From positions 1 through 58,867 of the IMG/VR virus record IMGVR_UViG_3300049203_000265: a DNA stretch of 58,867 nt; one strand, 5' to 3'. The notes under the pieces were generated by a model. It made no database searches. It had not been told where the DNA came from and was given only the letters and a program-made list of their open reading frames with translations. Both the position numbers and the translations under genes were made by a program. This document shows, piece after piece, positions 37,617-58,867 of this stretch (the stretch's first letter is position 1; every line of letters starts with the position of its first letter). This DNA comes from a virus (Duplodnaviria; Caudoviricetes).

Positions 37617-39242
37617 GTGAAGAGTTTGCTGCTGACCCTCGGCCACAACAGCTCGGCCGTCCTGATGGACGACAACCGTGTGGCTTGGGGCTACGAGACC
37701 GAGCGGATTTCCGGGGCGAAGTCCGACAGCAATTTCCCGGCCCGAGTGCTCGAGCGCCGCCTGTGGTCGAGCGTGGACATGGTCTACGTCACTCACTGGG
37801 CGCCGACCGGCCAGCTGATCGACATGTCGCACAAACACTGGCGGCCGGAGTTCTTCGACGGCATACCCGTGCGGTCGCTCTCTCCGTCGTGCTCGCACCA
37901 CGACACCCACATCGCGGGCGCGATGTGTTACGCCGGCCCGCGCTTCCCCTACGGGCGGAAGACCATCGGCGTGGTGGTCGACGGGTTCGGCATCCTCGGC
38001 GAACACTTCAGCGTGTACCAGCTCGAGGCTCACCAGAAGCCGAGGCTCCTGCGCCGCGTGCACGGCTACGGCACCAGCCTCGGGCTGTGGTATCAGTACG
38101 CCACCGCCTTCATGGGTATGAAGATGCACGAGGACGAGTACAAGCTGCTCGGCTACGAGGCGCATATCCGGGAGGAGGACGCAGAAGACCTCGACCGCCT
38201 GTCCAAGAGCGCCTCGGAGAAGTGGCTCGAGTGGATGGGGCAATCCGTCTACGGGTCCGAGTTCGACCCAGTCTACAACCTCGCCGCGCTCGAGGAGGTC
38301 AAGAAGAAGGTGTTCGGCCAGCTTCTGGCCGTGTGCAAGTACTTCGGCCTCGCCGACCCGTCAGCCGACCTCTCGCGCCGCATCCTGTCGTACTACGTGC
38401 AGAGGGTGCTCGAGCGCGTGGTGGTCGGCCTGATCGACCTCAGCGCGGGCGACTACACCAACATGATCTGCTCGGGCGGTGTGTTCTACAACGTCAAGCT
38501 CAACAAGATCCTTCTCGACCAGGTGGCCGAGCGCGGCGGCCAGATGTGCGTGTACCCTCTGGCGGGCGACCAGGGCTGCGCTCTAGGCCTCTACGCCATC
38601 GACCACCCGGCACTGGAGTTTCCGAAGGACCTGAACTGGGGCGTGCGCGAGCTCTACGACGTCGGCGAGGTCAAGGGCCTCATCGTGTTCGAGAACGAGC
38701 TCGAGGCCGTCGACTACTCGATCCACCGCCTCCGTACCAAGGGCGTGGTGAACCTCGTGCGGGGCGCGATGGAATTCGGGCCTCGCGCCATGTGCAACAC
38801 GTCGACCATCGCCTTGCCCAACCGCAAGGTGGTGCGCAAGATCAACACGGCCAACGAGCGGAACACCGTCATGCCGATGGCTCCGGTCATGAGCGAGACG
38901 CAGTACACGTCGCTCCTCGAGAAGACCCCGCACGTGTGGCGCTCGCACCGCCACATGATAATGGCGATGGAGATGAAGGAGCACCCGTTGGACAACATGC
39001 TGGGCTGCACGCACGAGTACCATCGCCCGACGAAGCACCACACGTGCCGCCCGCAGGTGGTGGGCCCGAGCGACGGAGTCATGACCAAGATGCTGTCGGC
39101 CTTCGGGCACCCGCTCATCAACACCTCTTTCAACTATCACGGCATGCCCATCGCGTTCGACATGCCGTCGATCATACAAAACCACAACATGCAGCACCAG
39201 CGCGACAACGACTTTCACACAGTGGTGATCCAAAATGTCTAA
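37617..39242 (+). CDS. NodU/CmcH-family O-carbamoyltransferase
   Basis: GHNSSA, ER....K, HHDTH, VVDGFG, SGGVFYNVKLN, GDQG, EFGPRA, INTSFNYHGMPI. Confidence 0.92.
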   Translation: MKSLLLTLGHNSSAVLMDDNRVAWGYETERISGAKSDSNFPARVLERRLWSSVDMVYVTHWAPTGQLIDMSHKHWRPEFFDGIPVRSLSPSCSHHDTHIAGAMCYAGPRFPYGRKTIGVVVDGFGILGEHFSVYQLEAHQKPRLLRRVHGYGTSLGLWYQYATAFMGMKMHEDEYKLLGYEAHIREEDAEDLDRLSKSASEKWLEWMGQSVYGSEFDPVYNLAALEEVKKKVFGQLLAVCKYFGLADPSADLSRRILSYYVQRVLERVVVGLIDLSAGDYTNMICSGGVFYNVKLNKILLDQVAERGGQMCVYPLAGDQGCALGLYAIDHPALEFPKDLNWGVRELYDVGEVKGLIVFENELEAVDYSIHRLRTKGVVNLVRGAMEFGPRAMCNTSTIALPNRKVVRKINTANERNTVMPMAPVMSETQYTSLLEKTPHVWRSHRHMIMAMEMKEHPLDNMLGCTHEYHRPTKHHTCRPQVVGPSDGVMTKMLSAFGHPLINTSFNYHGMPIAFDMPSIIQNHNMQHQRDNDFHTVVIQNV

Positions 39243-45156: not shown

Positions 45157-45197
45157 GATCGAAACGTTGTACATCCGGGGCAGGGGCGGTGTACAAT
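45157..45197 (+). promoter_or_regulatory. promoter GATCGAA-N4-TGTACA-N18-TACAAT
   Basis: Repeated motif; would drive the HTH gene and the ncRNA. Confidence 0.75.
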
Positions 45198-45280
45198 ATG
45201 AACTGCAAATCGCTAATGAGGCGTCGCCCACAGCCGCTTTAGCGATCCTCCAGCAAGTGGGCATTTTCCAGGAGAAAGAA

Positions 45281-45784
45281 ATGACCGAAGCAACCCAAAC
45301 CGCCGACGCCGCGGGCGAGGCCCGCAAGCGCGCGGCCGCATCGAACTTCCTCGCCATCGTGCGCGGCCGCCTGCCGCTGATCTTCGTGCACGCCATCCGC
45401 TTCGACGAGGTGGTTTCGAAGATGGGCAACAAGGACGCCGCCGCCAAGTTCGGCACGTCCGTCGGCAAGGTGTTCGACATCCGCAAGGGCCGCAACTTCT
45501 CGTACGTCGACCAGGGCTTCAAGCCGAACGCCGACGACGTGGCCCAGGCCAAGTCGTGGGCCGAGCAGGTCGGCGCGCAGAACGCCAAGGGGCTGACTGC
45601 CAGCGGCGACAAGGACCTGATGCTGAAGATCGTGGGCGAGTACGAGGCGCGCGGCCTCGGGACCGGTGCACAGCGCCCGGCCCGCACGCCCGGCGAGAAA
45701 CAGCCCGCAGCGGCGGCCGCGGGTGCCGGTGGTGAACAGACGCAGGCGGCGGGTGCCAACACCGCCGACGCGCTCCTGAGCTGA
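45281..45784 (+). CDS. HTH-like nucleic-acid-binding protein
   Basis: AGGAGA RBS; NKDAAAKFGTSVGKVFDIRKGRNF; very biased codon usage. Confidence 0.7.
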   Translation: MTEATQTADAAGEARKRAAASNFLAIVRGRLPLIFVHAIRFDEVVSKMGNKDAAAKFGTSVGKVFDIRKGRNFSYVDQGFKPNADDVAQAKSWAEQVGAQNAKGLTASGDKDLMLKIVGEYEARGLGTGAQRPARTPGEKQPAAAAAGAGGEQTQAAGANTADALLS

Positions 45785-45789
45785 ACACG

Positions 45790-46537
45790 CAGGCAGCAAG
45801 AGTAGCCTCCCACTCTTTGTTCGGGGCCGGTCCGTACGGACACCATCCGGGCGCTAAACGAAGGCCGTTGACGAGACGTAAACTCGCCTAGACCTGGGCA
45901 TGTCGACAAAACTGCCCACTTATCTGTTTCGGCCGGAGAGGGGGAGGCGATGGCCCCCGTAAAGGTAAATCGAGGTGTTGCTGCGGCTTGCTGCATTTGT
46001 CGCACCGAACAGGCGCTCGGGCCGAAACAGATAAGTTGCAAGGCCAGTTAAGGTCGCGTTCGTTCCATGTCGCGGCAGTGACGCAGGCCCCAATCGGCGG
46101 CAGATCGTGATGAGAGTTGTCCCGGGCGCATCTCCAATGTGCCGCCAGCCCGGACGGACGTTTGTAGTTGGCTTCAGGCATCAAGTCTCGACAAAGCGGC
46201 AATTCGGCGGAATTAATGCCGTGAAAACGAGAGCCCCCGCCGGGGAAGCATAGGGCGATTTGAGGACGAGCCGGGTTTACTGGTCAACTCTTAAAGTTCC
46301 GAAGAGGGCGGCAGCCCCTGGCGCCTGAGGTTAACTACAAGGGTCCGGAGCGACGGCCGACCGCGGGATGTGAAGCCCTCGCGGAGAGCCGCCGGGCTCT
46401 TGACGAGTTCTGTGGGCCGCTCTAGCTCAGAAAGCTCAGCCGAATTCTAGACAAGGCCGAGTGCGGTAGAGCCCCGGGCTAATAACCCGGTACGTGCGGA
46501 GAGATGGGCCTCCTCCGGAGCGGCCCACAGAGCTTAT
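45790..46537 (+). ncRNA. large structured non-coding RNA (unassigned family)
   Basis: ~760 nt gap in a gene-dense region; three 17-18 bp helices, two with G-U pairs valid only on the + strand. Confidence 0.7.
46414..46527 (+). ncRNA. aberrant tRNA-like cloverleaf, anticodon AAU
   Basis: TAGCTCAG...GGTAGAGC D arm; CCGGG-CTAATAA-CCCGG anticodon arm; no TTC loop. Confidence 0.55.
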
Positions 46538-46549
46538 CGGAGGTCTGTC

Positions 46550-46981
46550 ATGATCAGTCGCAGAGGCCTGCTGGCCGGGTTCGCCGCGAGCGCGGCTGGC
46601 GTTCTGGTGCCGCAAGCGCCGGCCATCGTGCGCAGCACATCGCTCATGCCGGTGCGGCCGCTCGAGGACTTTCTCGTGTACTCCGTCAGCTACCGACATG
46701 TTGGAGTGTTCGGAGACACGTTCGTCGCCCGGGCCTGGTGGCATGCGGCCACCAAACGGTGGTACCAGCCCGTCGCCGAACACGAGTACGACCGTGACAG
46801 ACCCAGCGGGATGTGGATGCGCCGGAACGGCACGTACTTCGCCAGTGACGTCGACGGCTCCGGCGATGGCTGGGAACAGCGCCGCGTCGAAGTGCCGGTG
46901 CTTCGCACCATGGAGCTCTGTGAAGTGAAATTCGGGTCCAGAGGATCCATCGAGATGGTGACAAAGGAGATAGATTTGTGA
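46550..46981 (+). CDS. hypothetical protein with twin-arginine-like N-terminus
   Basis: MISRRGLLAGFAA; GGAGG RBS. Confidence 0.6.
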   Translation: MISRRGLLAGFAASAAGVLVPQAPAIVRSTSLMPVRPLEDFLVYSVSYRHVGVFGDTFVARAWWHAATKRWYQPVAEHEYDRDRPSGMWMRRNGTYFASDVDGSGDGWEQRRVEVPVLRTMELCEVKFGSRGSIEMVTKEIDL

Positions 46982-57989: not shown

Positions 57990-58169
57990 CAGGAGGTGCC
58001 CGCCCACCGGCGGCATGATCGGGCGGCGCCGCGAGCGCGGGGCATGGATCCATAGGCCGGCTCCCGGAAACGGGGATCAGCCCGGGCCGTAACAGGTGAG
58101 CATCAGCCGCCCGGCGGGGGCAGGGGCCGCGATCAGGGGGACGGGCCGTACCGTAAGTTATCGGCACAA

Positions 58170-58645
58170 AAAACTTATGGTAAACGTTTACGGTAAAACG
58201 AAAAGTTCAATCCGGATAATAACTTAAGTGCGAAACTGCGCCGTGGCGTGCTCTGAGCGGCTCCCGGAGTAGGCAGGGGCGTGTGCAGGGGACCGTGCGA
58301 GTTGTGCATCGCACATCGCACGCGGTGGACGGAAACGTTACCGTAACGTACCGTAACTGCGTGACGGACGGGCTCGGTTTCAGCCAGTTTCTACCCGCGG
58401 CGTCGGCCGAAGCCCGTACACTTAAGTTATTAATTTTGTTGAACTTTAGTATTTACCATATATTTACCATAAATATAATAAAAGTATATAAATGAATATA
58501 TTCCATGATTAGGTCCTATTCAATTGTAATATACAATTTATACTTAAAACCATATATATTCTATTATATAATTAAGTTTTGAAAAGTTATGGTAAACGTA
58601 TGGTAAACCCTAAATATCGTTATAAATTAATAACTTAAGTGCGCG
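58170..58645. repeat. AT-rich region with direct and inverted repeat units (candidate origin/terminal control region)
   Basis: TATGGTAAA...TAATAACTTAAGTG unit at 58175-58232 and 58587-58643, inverted at 58419-58471. Confidence 0.7.
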
Positions 58646-58867
58646 GATTCTAGCCGAGCGCCCGGGTAGCACAACTTGTCCCGGACGTCGCACGAGGCAC
58701 AAAAGGTCCCGGAGAGCACTCCGGCGACGCAGGTTGGCCCACTGGGGCGATGGCCGACGCGCGAAGTCCGACGAGCGTGGGCGAAGCCCGTCGCACATCG
58801 CTCCCGGAGGCCCCTGGAACGATTCCTAGATCCGGGGGCGCAGGCTCGTCGGGCGGGCGGCCGGGCG

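What the first reader, a model, noticed from the sequence alone, without database searches (positions are those of the whole stretch)
46405..46535. Remodelled tRNA mimic with AAU anticodon, hairpin-expanded D-loop and no TpsiC loop
Seen: acceptor-like GGGCCGCTC/GAGCGGCCC extended to 18 bp; canonical TAGCTCAG and GGTAGAGC D-arm halves separated by a 34-nt insert that can fold (CTCAGCC/GGCCGAG); a perfectly spaced anticodon arm CCGGG-CT AAT AA-CCCGG resembling Met/Ile tRNA arms; T-stem CGGAG/CTCCG closing an 11-nt non-consensus loop; CCA at 46525-46527. Established: A34 Ile anticodons are very rare in bacteria, and phages use tRNA variants to counter host anticodon nucleases. Inference: all stems are intact while both elbow loops are rebuilt, which suggests a selected tRNA mimic (decoy for a tRNase, synthetase or modification enzyme) rather than a decayed tRNA.
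Basis: partly seen in the sequence, partly recalled or inferred. Interest (0 to 1): 0.8.

Follow-up and report, generated by a model that had tools for sequence, protein, structure and literature searches.

The report
Remodelled tRNA relic in phage leader
A soil phage carries a stretch that clearly descends from a tRNA gene but has been rebuilt into a stem-clamped RNA that cannot work as a tRNA; what it does now, if anything, is still unknown.

Summary
The described features are all present at 46405-46535 (+). The RNA folds into a cloverleaf closed by an 18-bp helix (z -5.3). A relaxed cloverleaf descriptor hits only here in the window, against 1 hit in 100 shuffles. The D-arm halves and the anticodon arm match real Lys(UUU), Asn(GUU) and Met(CAU) tRNAs, so tRNA ancestry is secure.

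It is not a working tRNA. ARAGORN and Rfam find nothing. The T loop is non-consensus, the D loop holds a 34-nt hairpin, the CCA is base-paired, and ATT codons are rare in the phage.

The element is the third of three stem-closed, multibranched domains in a 765-nt non-coding gap of a complete 58.9-kb phage, and it ends 3 nt before the ribosome-binding site of the next gene.

I found no homologue, no sequence variant and no transcript covering it, so function is inferred only. My best reading is a tRNA-derived structural module of a processed leader RNA (confidence about 0.4). An anticodon-arm decoy (about 0.15) and a neutral relic (about 0.25) are not excluded. The phage encodes no integrase, Ro60 or reverse transcriptase.

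The parts
45785..46549 (+). 765-nt non-coding gap between the 205-aa ORF (45167-45784) and the 143-aa ORF (46550-46981); GC 0.61
   Evidence: The longest + strand ORF inside is 48 aa. It is one of three stretches without a convincing + strand ORF. The whole-gap fold is -344.6 kcal/mol, z -4.04, on + and -319.8 kcal/mol, z -3.41, on -.
45918..46036 (+). Domain 1: multibranched fold closed by a 21-nt inverted repeat, 95% complementary
   Evidence: I1. For 45895-46040, one search gives z -4.42, with 0 of 200 shuffles as good. The + strand folds at -57.9 and the - strand at -51.2 kcal/mol.
46155..46347 (+). Domain 2: multibranched fold closed by a 25-nt inverted repeat, 80% complementary, with many G-U pairs
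   Evidence: I2. For 46150-46352, one search gives z -4.66. The + strand folds at -88.8 kcal/mol with 11 G-U pairs and the - strand at -67.8 with 6, which favours an RNA read from the + strand.
46405..46535 (+). Domain 3: the tRNA-derived element (cloverleaf with an 18-bp closing helix)
   Evidence: Helix pair probabilities are 0.73-1.0. There is no strand asymmetry: + is -67.3 and - is -67.7 kcal/mol.
46405..46422 (+). 5' strand of the closing helix. The 7 innermost bases are acceptor-like, and GGGCCGC at 46414-46420 matches the acceptor of real tRNA-Lys genes.
   Evidence: I3. Acceptor match to L098 and L130.
46518..46535 (+). 3' strand of the closing helix, including the paired CCA at 46525-46527
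46425..46472 (+). D-like arm: stem GCTC (46425-46428) / GAGC (46469-46472) around a 40-nt loop
   Evidence: Pair probability 0.93.
46431..46464 (+). 34-nt insert in the D loop. It forms a hairpin at 46434-46462 and begins with a second copy of AGCTCAG.
   Evidence: Hairpin pair probability 0.93.
46474..46490 (+). Anticodon-like arm: 5 bp plus the 7-nt loop CTAATAA; AAT at 46481-46483
   Evidence: The same arm with other anticodons occurs in 120 real tRNAs, and AAT in 0 of 120. The same arm with AAT occurs in two metagenome tRNAs.
46497..46517 (+). T-like arm: 5-bp stem with an 11-nt loop that does not fit the T-loop consensus
   Evidence: Pair probability 0.73. None of the matches to a T-loop consensus pattern lies in the gap.
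46539..46552 (+). GGAGG ribosome-binding site (46539-46543) and ATG (46550) of the downstream ORF. The site starts 3 nt after the closing helix ends.
45868..45894 (+). First copy of the motif TTGACGAG...CTAGNNC, 24 nt upstream of domain 1
   Evidence: (D3). The pattern was written after seeing both copies.
46400..46428 (+). Second copy of the motif. It overlaps the 5' strand of the closing helix and the TAGCTC of the D arm.
   Evidence: One search gives 2 matches in the window, both in this gap, against a mean of 0.13 in 100 shuffles. The sigma-70 scan found no promoter-like site.

Best explanation
The element is a former tRNA gene of the phage. Its anticodon arm and acceptor are of the Lys/Asn/Met type. 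It has been rebuilt into a stem-clamped, non-decoding RNA module.

Shown:
- It keeps all four tRNA helices.
- It has lost the T loop, carries a 34-nt hairpin in the D loop, and has its acceptor helix lengthened to 18 bp, so there is no free NCCA end.
- It is the third of three domains of like build (long closing helix, branched interior) in one 765-nt non-coding stretch on the coding strand.
- It ends 3 nt before the ribosome-binding site of the next gene.

Inferred:
- The gap is transcribed with the flanking genes.
- The three long helices (21, 25 and 18 bp) are double-strand-specific processing and stability sites of the RNase III kind. They would separate the upstream replication-module message from the downstream small-gene message and leave structured ends.
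- The tRNA-like core is kept for its compact fold, not for decoding.

I put about 0.85 on 'tRNA-derived and not a working tRNA' and about 0.4 on the cis-acting processing or stability role.
For: tRNA ancestry:
- The sequence and geometry fit.
- The cloverleaf descriptor hits once in the window, against 1 hit in 100 shuffles.
- Both D-arm halves occur together once, against 0 in 100 shuffles.
- The D-3' plus anticodon-arm string is shared with 120 real tRNAs.
- Bacterial tRNA-Lys genes L098 and L130 also share the acceptor GGGCCGC/GCGGCCC plus A.

Not a working tRNA:
- ARAGORN finds 0 genes in the window and none at relaxed settings. Of 63 in-silico deletions of the insert, none gave a + strand call.
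- Rfam finds nothing at gathering score or at E up to 10.
- The CCA is paired.
- ATT makes up 34 of 12,990 codons in 35 ORFs, against 514 ATC.

Selection on structure:
- All 21 cloverleaf pairs are Watson-Crick and 11 added pairs extend the helix.
- Pair probabilities are 0.73-1.0.

Context:
- Three stem-closed domains have z -4.4, -4.7 and -5.3.
- Domains 1 and 2 fold better on the + strand, by 6.7 and 21 kcal/mol.
- The ORF map puts all genes on the + strand, and the gap has near-average GC, unlike the two AT-rich gaps.
- The ribosome-binding site begins 3 nt after the helix.
Against: - No comparative support exists. No homologue was found in phage records, in viral contigs, in 84 loci totalling 603,637 bases searched with model R1, or in 5 of the 10 kin contigs.
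- The contigs of the three soil DNA runs laid (X23, X13, X7) that cover the element show no differing letter. There is therefore no covariation.
- Expression is not shown.
- My own tRNA model R2 (41 tRNAs), run with filters off, gives only a partial hit at 46456-46490: 12.8 bits, E 0.49, fifth of 61 chance-level hits. The tRNA likeness thus rests on motifs and geometry, not on a significant model score.
- Domain 3 itself shows no strand asymmetry.
- RNase III cleavage is an analogy recalled from T7-type phages and was not tested.
- An 18-bp inverted repeat can also arise in one step by template switching, without selection.
Confidence: 0.4

Rival explanations
1. Trans-acting anticodon-arm decoy. 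The clamped RNA is released and presents an intact Lys/Met-type anticodon stem-loop with an AAU triplet. This would bind and occupy a host anticodon nuclease or an anticodon-loop modification enzyme.
For: - The anticodon arm is the best-kept tRNA part: 5 Watson-Crick pairs, a 7-nt loop, U33 and A37.
- Its stem is identical to that of real tRNA-Lys(UUU), the substrate class of known anticodon nucleases.
- PARIS AriB cleaves tRNA-Lys, and phage T5 escapes with its own tRNA-Lys variant (passages of PMC11455837).
- PrrC and RloC are tRNA-Lys-type anticodon nucleases (abstract of PMC2610378, listed).
- Clamped ends would make the RNA stable.
- The same arm with AAT recurs in two unrelated metagenome tRNAs.
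Against: - No expression, binding or conservation data exist.
- The phage answers described in what I read are working replacement tRNAs, not decoys.
- The two anticodon bases that would differ from Lys(UUU) are the ones such nucleases would be expected to read. This point is recalled, not tested.
- The phage has no tRNA-repair or other tRNA-related gene among the 20 proteins I scanned.
Confidence: 0.15
2. Neutral relic. This is a dead tRNA gene that suffered a duplication-insertion in the D loop and replacement of the T loop. The long helix arose by a one-step inverted duplication, and the element has no function.
For: - The insert begins with a second copy of AGCTCAG, as a slippage or duplication event would leave.
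- No tRNA finder accepts the element.
- Neither conservation nor expression is shown.
- Domain 3 has no + over - folding advantage.
Against: - Enough change occurred to erase the T loop, yet there is not one mismatch in the 21 cloverleaf pairs.
- Eleven added pairs include two G-U pairs.
- Two neighbouring domains have the same build.
- A 765-nt non-coding stretch is retained in an otherwise tightly packed genome.
Confidence: 0.25
3. DNA-level signal. The repeated motif TTGACGAG...CTAGNNC marks two promoters or operator sites, and the TAGCTC is a -10-like box. Transcription for the downstream genes would then start inside the element, so the full cloverleaf would form only in read-through RNA.
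For: The pattern occurs twice in the window, both times in this gap on the + strand, against a mean of 0.13 in shuffles. The second copy sits about 120 nt before the next gene's ribosome-binding site.
Against: - The pattern was defined after seeing both copies.
- TTGACGAG alone is at chance level: 2 matches found against a mean of 2.58 expected.
- The sigma-70 scan finds 0 promoter-like sites in 45600-46800.
- This reading does not explain the anticodon arm, the T-like stem or the 3' strand of the helix.
Confidence: 0.1
4. An unusual but working tRNA whose D-loop insert and flanks are removed by processing.
For: - Four intact helices and U33 are present.
- G18/G19-like GG is kept at 46465-46466.
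- tRNA(AAT) genes with a large insertion exist elsewhere and pass Rfam's tRNA threshold.
Against: - There is no T-loop consensus.
- A 34-nt insert is too short for a self-splicing intron.
- The phage's kin infect bacteria, where no enzyme that removes such inserts is known (recalled).
- With the insert deleted in silico, ARAGORN still calls nothing on the + strand.
- ATT codons are rare.
Confidence: 0.03

Closest known systems
Phage-encoded tRNAs, including variants that escape host anticodon nucleases (T5 tRNA-Lys against PARIS; passages of PMC11455837)
   Same: It is a tRNA-derived sequence in a phage genome. Its anticodon stem is identical to that of real tRNA-Lys/Asn/Met genes.
   Different: Those are complete, chargeable tRNAs. 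This element has no T loop, a 40-nt D loop and a paired 3' end, and no tRNA finder accepts it.
Bacterial and phage Y RNAs of the YrlA type (PMC4201824; passages read)
   Same: A long helix made by the 5' and 3' ends is joined to a tRNA-like module, and some are encoded by phages.
   Different: In YrlA the conserved parts are the T and D arms. YrlA also has a GNCGAA motif near the 5' end and a Ro60 (TROVE) gene within about 4 kb. Here the T and D loops are the parts lost, the 5' strand of the helix has no such motif, the genome has no TROVE gene and no Rfam family matches.
tRNA pseudogenes and remnants in phage and bacterial genomes
   Same: The motifs are recognisable but the element fails tRNA models.
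   Different: All helices are intact and the acceptor helix is lengthened by 11 pairs. The element sits in a series of three like-built domains.
RNase III processing hairpins between cistrons of T7-type phage transcripts
   Same: Long double-stranded helices lie in intercistronic RNA on the coding strand, directly upstream of a ribosome-binding site.
   Different: Those are simple hairpins with an internal bubble. Here each helix closes a branched interior, and cleavage was not tested.
tRNA(AAT) genes with a roughly 110-nt insertion in metagenome contigs L219 and L220
   Same: From TAGCTCAG to AACCCG the sequence is the same apart from the D-loop bases between the two halves (2 nt in L219, the 34-nt insert here) and one base. 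Both have an AAT anticodon triplet and a large insertion in an otherwise tRNA-shaped gene.
   Different: Those keep canonical D and T loops, score 43.8 and 33.0 bits on Rfam tRNA, and have their insertion after the anticodon stem. The contigs show no protein similarity to this phage.

Membership tests
tRNA (Rfam RF00005; ARAGORN definition) | Scores at or above the family threshold on a tRNA covariance model or tRNA finder | tested here: not met
   - ARAGORN finds 0 genes and none at relaxed thresholds.
- Rfam gives no tRNA match at gathering score or at E up to 10 in 601-, 1001- and 131-nt searches.
- My own model R2 gives only a partial hit: 12.8 bits, E 0.49.
tRNA (Rfam RF00005; ARAGORN definition) | 7-bp acceptor stem with a single-stranded discriminator and CCA end | tested here: not met
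   The helix runs on for 18 bp, and the CCA at 46525-46527 is paired.
tRNA (Rfam RF00005; ARAGORN definition) | 7-nt T loop of consensus sequence on a 5-bp stem | tested here: not met
   The 5-bp stem is present but the loop is 11 nt and non-consensus. No match to a T-loop consensus pattern lies in the gap.
tRNA (Rfam RF00005; ARAGORN definition) | D stem of 3-4 bp with a loop of about 7-11 nt holding GG | tested here: not met
   The 4-bp stem and the GG are present, but the loop is 40 nt and contains a hairpin.
tRNA (Rfam RF00005; ARAGORN definition) | 5-bp anticodon stem and 7-nt loop with U33 and a purine at 37 | tested here: met
   CCGGG / CTAATAA / CCCGG at 46474-46490. The arm is identical to that of 120 real tRNAs except for the anticodon.
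Y RNA / YrlA | Ro60 (TROVE-domain) gene nearby on the same strand | tested here: not met
   PF05731 gives 0 matches in the 58,867-nt record, while the control genomes ring.
Y RNA / YrlA | GNCGAA motif near the 5' end plus conserved T and D arms (as described in PMC4201824) | tested here: not met
   The 5' strand 46405-46422 has no such motif, the T and D loops are the altered parts, and no Rfam hit was found.
tmRNA | tRNA-like domain with a tag reading frame, detectable by ARAGORN or Rfam | tested here: not met
   ARAGORN finds 0 tmRNA genes. Rfam finds none.
attP site carrying part of a tRNA gene | An integrase is encoded by the phage | tested here: not met
   PF00589 gives 0 matches. PF00239 gives only a 13-bit sub-threshold match on the - strand inside a long + strand ORF.
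Retron non-coding RNA | An adjacent reverse transcriptase | tested here: not met
   PF00078 gives 0 matches in the record.
RNase III processing site | About two turns of double-stranded RNA in a transcribed intercistronic region, cut in vivo or in vitro | tested here: inconclusive
   Helices of 21, 25 and 18 bp are present on the coding strand. Transcription and cleavage cannot be tested with these tools.

The most novel reading that the evidence does not exclude
The phage makes a stable, end-clamped RNA that has shed everything a tRNA needs for translation. It keeps a perfect Lys/Met-type anticodon stem-loop with an uncuttable AAU triplet. This would be an RNA decoy that soaks up a host anticodon nuclease or anticodon-loop enzyme, and so an RNA-based anti-defence device distinct from the known replacement-tRNA strategy. 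The two neighbouring stem-closed domains could be further decoys or sponges in the same array.
Probability: 0.12. Interest if true: 0.8.

Novelty: new variant of a known kind. Interest (0 to 1): 0.4.

Why it matters
Phage tRNA genes are now seen as weapons against tRNA-cleaving host defences, not only as codon-usage aids (passages of PMC11455837). A tRNA gene turned into a non-decoding, stem-clamped RNA would show another fate for such genes. It could be a building block for structured leader or processing signals, or an RNA decoy.

The three-domain, 765-nt structured gap is also a candidate new non-coding RNA locus in an uncultured soil phage group with few sequenced relatives. The closest cultured kin share only 47% terminase identity.

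As it stands this is a single sequence with no conservation or expression data. Its value is that of a well-defined lead, not a result.

Tried and rejected
Searches for homologues of the element that found none:
- blastn of 45700-46700 against 50,697 phage records gave no match.
- An exact 26-nt string gave 0 matches in viral contigs.
- TAGCTCAG-N20-50-GGTAGAGC-N6-CTNNTAA in viral contigs gave 12 loci. By my reading, 0 of 12 have a D-loop insert; the ones I parsed show the first D-arm half in another tRNA just upstream or wrapped around the one that matches.
- Model R1, built from the element, hit only the element itself (both strands) in 84 sources totalling 603,637 bases.
- R1 matched in 0 of the 5 kin contigs I searched; I had 10 such contigs.

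Flanking-gene routes to relatives:
- The downstream ORF found no relatives in viral contigs or metagenome contigs.
- The exonuclease alone found none. Used as an alignment, it found 503 relatives, of which the best 80 were kept, all at 48% identity or less.
- The ligase found none.
- The terminase found 10 relatives at 65-73% identity, all on fragments of 4.3-15 kb.
- Proteins P0002 (87%), P0003 (98%) and P0004 (75%) show that closer kin exist.

Sequencing runs:
- 24 runs were listed and 4 were laid.
- The DNA contigs were identical to the window.
- The only RNA-library contig (X24) covers 45734-45916 and not the element. That says nothing about expression of the element.

Other readings tested:
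- A loop-loop contact that would rebuild the elbow is rejected.
- Y RNA, attP, retron and tmRNA readings are rejected.
- Xp15 and Effie, the closest cultured kin, have no tRNA near their homologue of the upstream gene.

Literature: three full-text searches turned up no description of a tRNA-like RNA with this build. They were not exhaustive.

Full report
What the window is. The window is a complete IMG/VR virus record of 58,867 bases. By a GC3-based ORF map, all convincing genes lie on the + strand, and GC is about 0.62-0.69. The record encodes a terminase, portal and major head protein, plus a primase, DNA polymerase, helicase, ATP-dependent DNA ligase, NUDIX hydrolase and an Rv2179c-like 3'-5' exonuclease. 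The closest cultured kin are Xanthomonas phage Xp15 and Acinetobacter phage Effie, at 47% terminase identity. This is therefore a bacterial, probably proteobacterial, tailed phage from soil. It has no tyrosine integrase, no credible serine recombinase, no reverse transcriptase and no Ro60/TROVE protein.

The observation.
- An 18-bp closing helix lies at 46405-46422 / 46518-46535.
- TA follows, then the D-stem half inside TAGCTCAG (46423-46430).
- A 34-nt insert occupies 46431-46464, followed by GGTAGAGC (46465-46472) and one base.
- The anticodon-like arm CCGGG-CTAATAA-CCCGG spans 46474-46490.
- Six bases follow, then CGGAG/CTCCG around an 11-nt loop (46497-46517).
- The 3' strand of the helix comes next with no spacer.

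RNAfold returns exactly this cloverleaf as both MFE and centroid: -67.3 kcal/mol, z -5.30, with 0 of 200 shuffles as good. Helix pair probabilities are 0.73-1.0.

Three details need correcting. The insert hairpin has one mismatch. The CCA (46525-46527) is paired inside the helix. The arm is not specifically Met/Ile-like.

Is it more than chance, and is it tRNA-derived? I wrote a relaxed cloverleaf descriptor: 21 pairs with G-U allowed, D loop 7-45 nt, variable region 4-6 nt and T loop 7-11 nt. It hits once in the window, at 46416-46524 on the + strand, and once in total in 100 dinucleotide shuffles. The two D-arm halves at this spacing occur once, against 0 in 100 shuffles. Both tests were designed after seeing the element, so they bound chance rather than prove descent.

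ARAGORN calls nearly all of them tRNAs. The anticodons are 56 Lys-TTT, 46 Asn-GTT, 15 Met-CAT, 3 Lys-CTT and 0 AAT. Bacterial tRNA-Lys genes in a Burkholderiales MAG (L098) and an Actinomycetota MAG (L130) also share the acceptor GGGCCGC/GCGGCCC and the following A with the element. A Microbacterium tRNA-Met (L071) matches the D-3'/anticodon-arm stretch at every base but one, the first base of the anticodon triplet. I take tRNA ancestry as secure. The ancestor's identity (Lys, Met, Asn or a tRNA(AAT)) stays open.

Results against a tRNA reading. ARAGORN finds no tRNA or tmRNA in the window. It finds none at relaxed thresholds, and none on the + strand in 63 in-silico deletions of the insert; the 3 calls it did make were on the opposite strand. 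Rfam gives no match at gathering score in the whole window. It gives no tRNA match at E up to 10 even when only the 131 nt are searched. I built a tRNA model from 41 tRNAs that were not selected by the pattern. Run with filters off, it gives only a partial hit on the D-3'/anticodon arm: 46456-46490, 12.8 bits, E 0.49, fifth of 61 chance-level hits.

Together with the missing T loop, the 40-nt D loop and the paired 3' end, this rules out an ordinary working tRNA. Decoding would also be of little use. ATT accounts for 34 of 12,990 codons in 35 ORFs, against 514 for ATC. The D-insert loop and the T loop have no meaningful complementarity: -1.0 kcal/mol, and 828 of 1000 shuffles do as well or better. 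There is thus no sign of a rebuilt elbow.

The element lies in a 765-nt stretch (45785-46549) with no + strand ORF longer than 48 aa. A crude ORF map leaves three stretches without a convincing + strand ORF. The other two, 927-1344 and 57990-58675, are AT-rich (GC 0.48 and 0.50). This one has GC 0.61, just below the genome's range.

The gap holds three long-range inverted repeats. Each closes a branched fold:
- 45918-46036: 21 nt, 95% complementary.
- 46155-46347: 25 nt, 80% complementary.
- The element itself.

Each domain folds far better than shuffles, with z -4.42, -4.66 and -5.30. Domains 1 and 2 fold better as + strand RNA, by 6.7 and 21 kcal/mol, with more G-U pairs. Domain 3 shows no such asymmetry.

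The element ends 3 nt before the GGAGG of the next ORF (46550-46981), whose product starts with a twin-arginine-like signal. A motif TTGACGAG...CTAGNNC occurs twice in the window, both times in this gap. One copy lies before domain 1 and the other overlaps the element's 5' strand. The sigma-70 scan sees no promoter there.

Comparative and expression evidence: none could be obtained.
- No similar DNA exists in 50,697 phage records.
- No pattern match of the right kind exists in viral contigs.
- Model R1 hits nothing but the element itself in 603,637 bases of 84 sources, including 80 loci around distant exonuclease homologues.
- Terminase relatives at 65-73% identity are short fragments. R1 matched in 0 of the 5 I searched, out of 10.
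- Twenty-four sequencing runs hold the gap. In the 4 that were laid, the DNA contigs were identical to the window, so there is no variation to test for covariation.
- Closer kin exist as proteins: 87% for the downstream ORF, and 98% and 75% for the exonuclease. Their DNA was out of reach.

A lead from the last metagenome scan. GGTAGAGC-NNN-GGGCTAATAACCC found two contigs, L219 and L220, which are 82% alike and unrelated to this phage. Each has a gene that Rfam scores as tRNA above threshold (43.8 and 33.0 bits). These genes have normal D and T loops, the same anticodon loop with AAT, and a roughly 110-nt insertion after the anticodon stem. ARAGORN misses them. L219 has a PTH2 peptidyl-tRNA hydrolase just upstream. 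tRNA(AAT) genes with this very arm therefore exist, again with a large insertion. The element's AAT may be inherited rather than a recent mutation.

How it most likely works.

Shown: the element is a tRNA-derived cloverleaf that cannot be charged or decode. Its ends are clamped by a helix 11 pairs longer than a tRNA acceptor stem. It sits in series with two domains of like build, on the coding strand, flush against a ribosome-binding site.

Inferred: the gap is transcribed with its neighbours. The long helices would be double-strand-specific processing and stability sites, separating the replication-module message from the downstream small-gene message. The analogy to RNase III sites of T7-type phages is recalled, not tested. 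The tRNA core would serve as a compact fold.

I give this reading about 0.4. The rivals are:
- A neutral relic (0.25). The duplicated AGCTCAG at the start of the insert fits a slippage event, but intact helices and the neighbouring domains argue against pure decay.
- An anticodon-arm decoy for a host tRNA-cleaving or tRNA-modifying enzyme (0.15). The Lys-type arm is suggestive given PARIS and PrrC/RloC, but nothing here tests it.
- A DNA-level promoter or operator reading (0.1).
- A processed, working tRNA (0.03).

Comparison with known families. The element fails every tested defining feature of tRNA except the anticodon arm. It fails the Y RNA/YrlA criteria described in PMC4201824: there is no GNCGAA motif, the T and D arms are not conserved, and there is no Ro60 gene. 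It is not tmRNA, not an attP tRNA fragment and not a retron RNA. It resembles YrlA only in the general plan of a terminal helix plus a tRNA-like module, but with the opposite parts of the tRNA kept.

Verdict. This is a real, non-random, tRNA-derived structured element of unusual build, in a notable three-domain non-coding region. Its function is unproven. I rate it a new variant of a known kind, of moderate interest, pending conservation and expression data.

Noticed in passing
L219 749-932 and L220 302-485 (metagenome contigs): These are tRNA genes with the anticodon loop CTAATAA (AAT), canonical D and T loops, and a roughly 110-nt insertion right after the anticodon stem. Rfam scores them as tRNA at 43.8 and 33.0 bits (gathering score 29), but ARAGORN calls nothing. 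L219 encodes the CCA end. A second odd tRNA-like gene (L219 674-741, 28.9 bits) and a PTH2 peptidyl-tRNA hydrolase ORF (L219 156-509, E 4.9e-17) lie just upstream.
   Followed up: partly
L004 6117-6183; L006 7342-7407 (= L014); also L005, L007/L009, L010, L012, L013 (viral contigs): Several phage contigs seem to hold a complete tRNA nested at the anticodon-loop or intron position of another tRNA, or tRNAs packed head to tail with shared flanks.
   Followed up: no
window 45918-46036 and 46155-46347: These are two further stem-closed, multibranched predicted RNA domains in the same gap (z -4.4 and -4.7). Both fold better on the + strand, and neither matches an Rfam family.
   Followed up: partly
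window 57990-58675 and 927-1344: These are AT-rich (GC 0.50 and 0.48) stretches without a convincing + strand ORF in a genome of about 64% GC. The first has long imperfect inverted repeats of 42-49 nt. They are candidates for an origin, promoter or packaging region.
   Followed up: no
window 46550-46981: The ORF directly after the element begins with a twin-arginine-like signal (MISRRGLLAGFAASAAG...). It has no Pfam or PHROG family. Its only relatives are 99% and 87% identical proteins from metagenomes.
   Followed up: partly
L071 3600-7805 (Microbacterium sp. genome contig): ARAGORN calls more than 20 tRNA genes in about 4 kb. The array includes the tRNA-Met whose D-3'/anticodon-arm stretch differs from the element's at one base, the first of the anticodon triplet.
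   Followed up: no
window 37617-39242: This ORF matches PHROG 1601, a Nol-like carbamoyltransferase (E 4.2e-53), and sits within the replication module.
   Followed up: no
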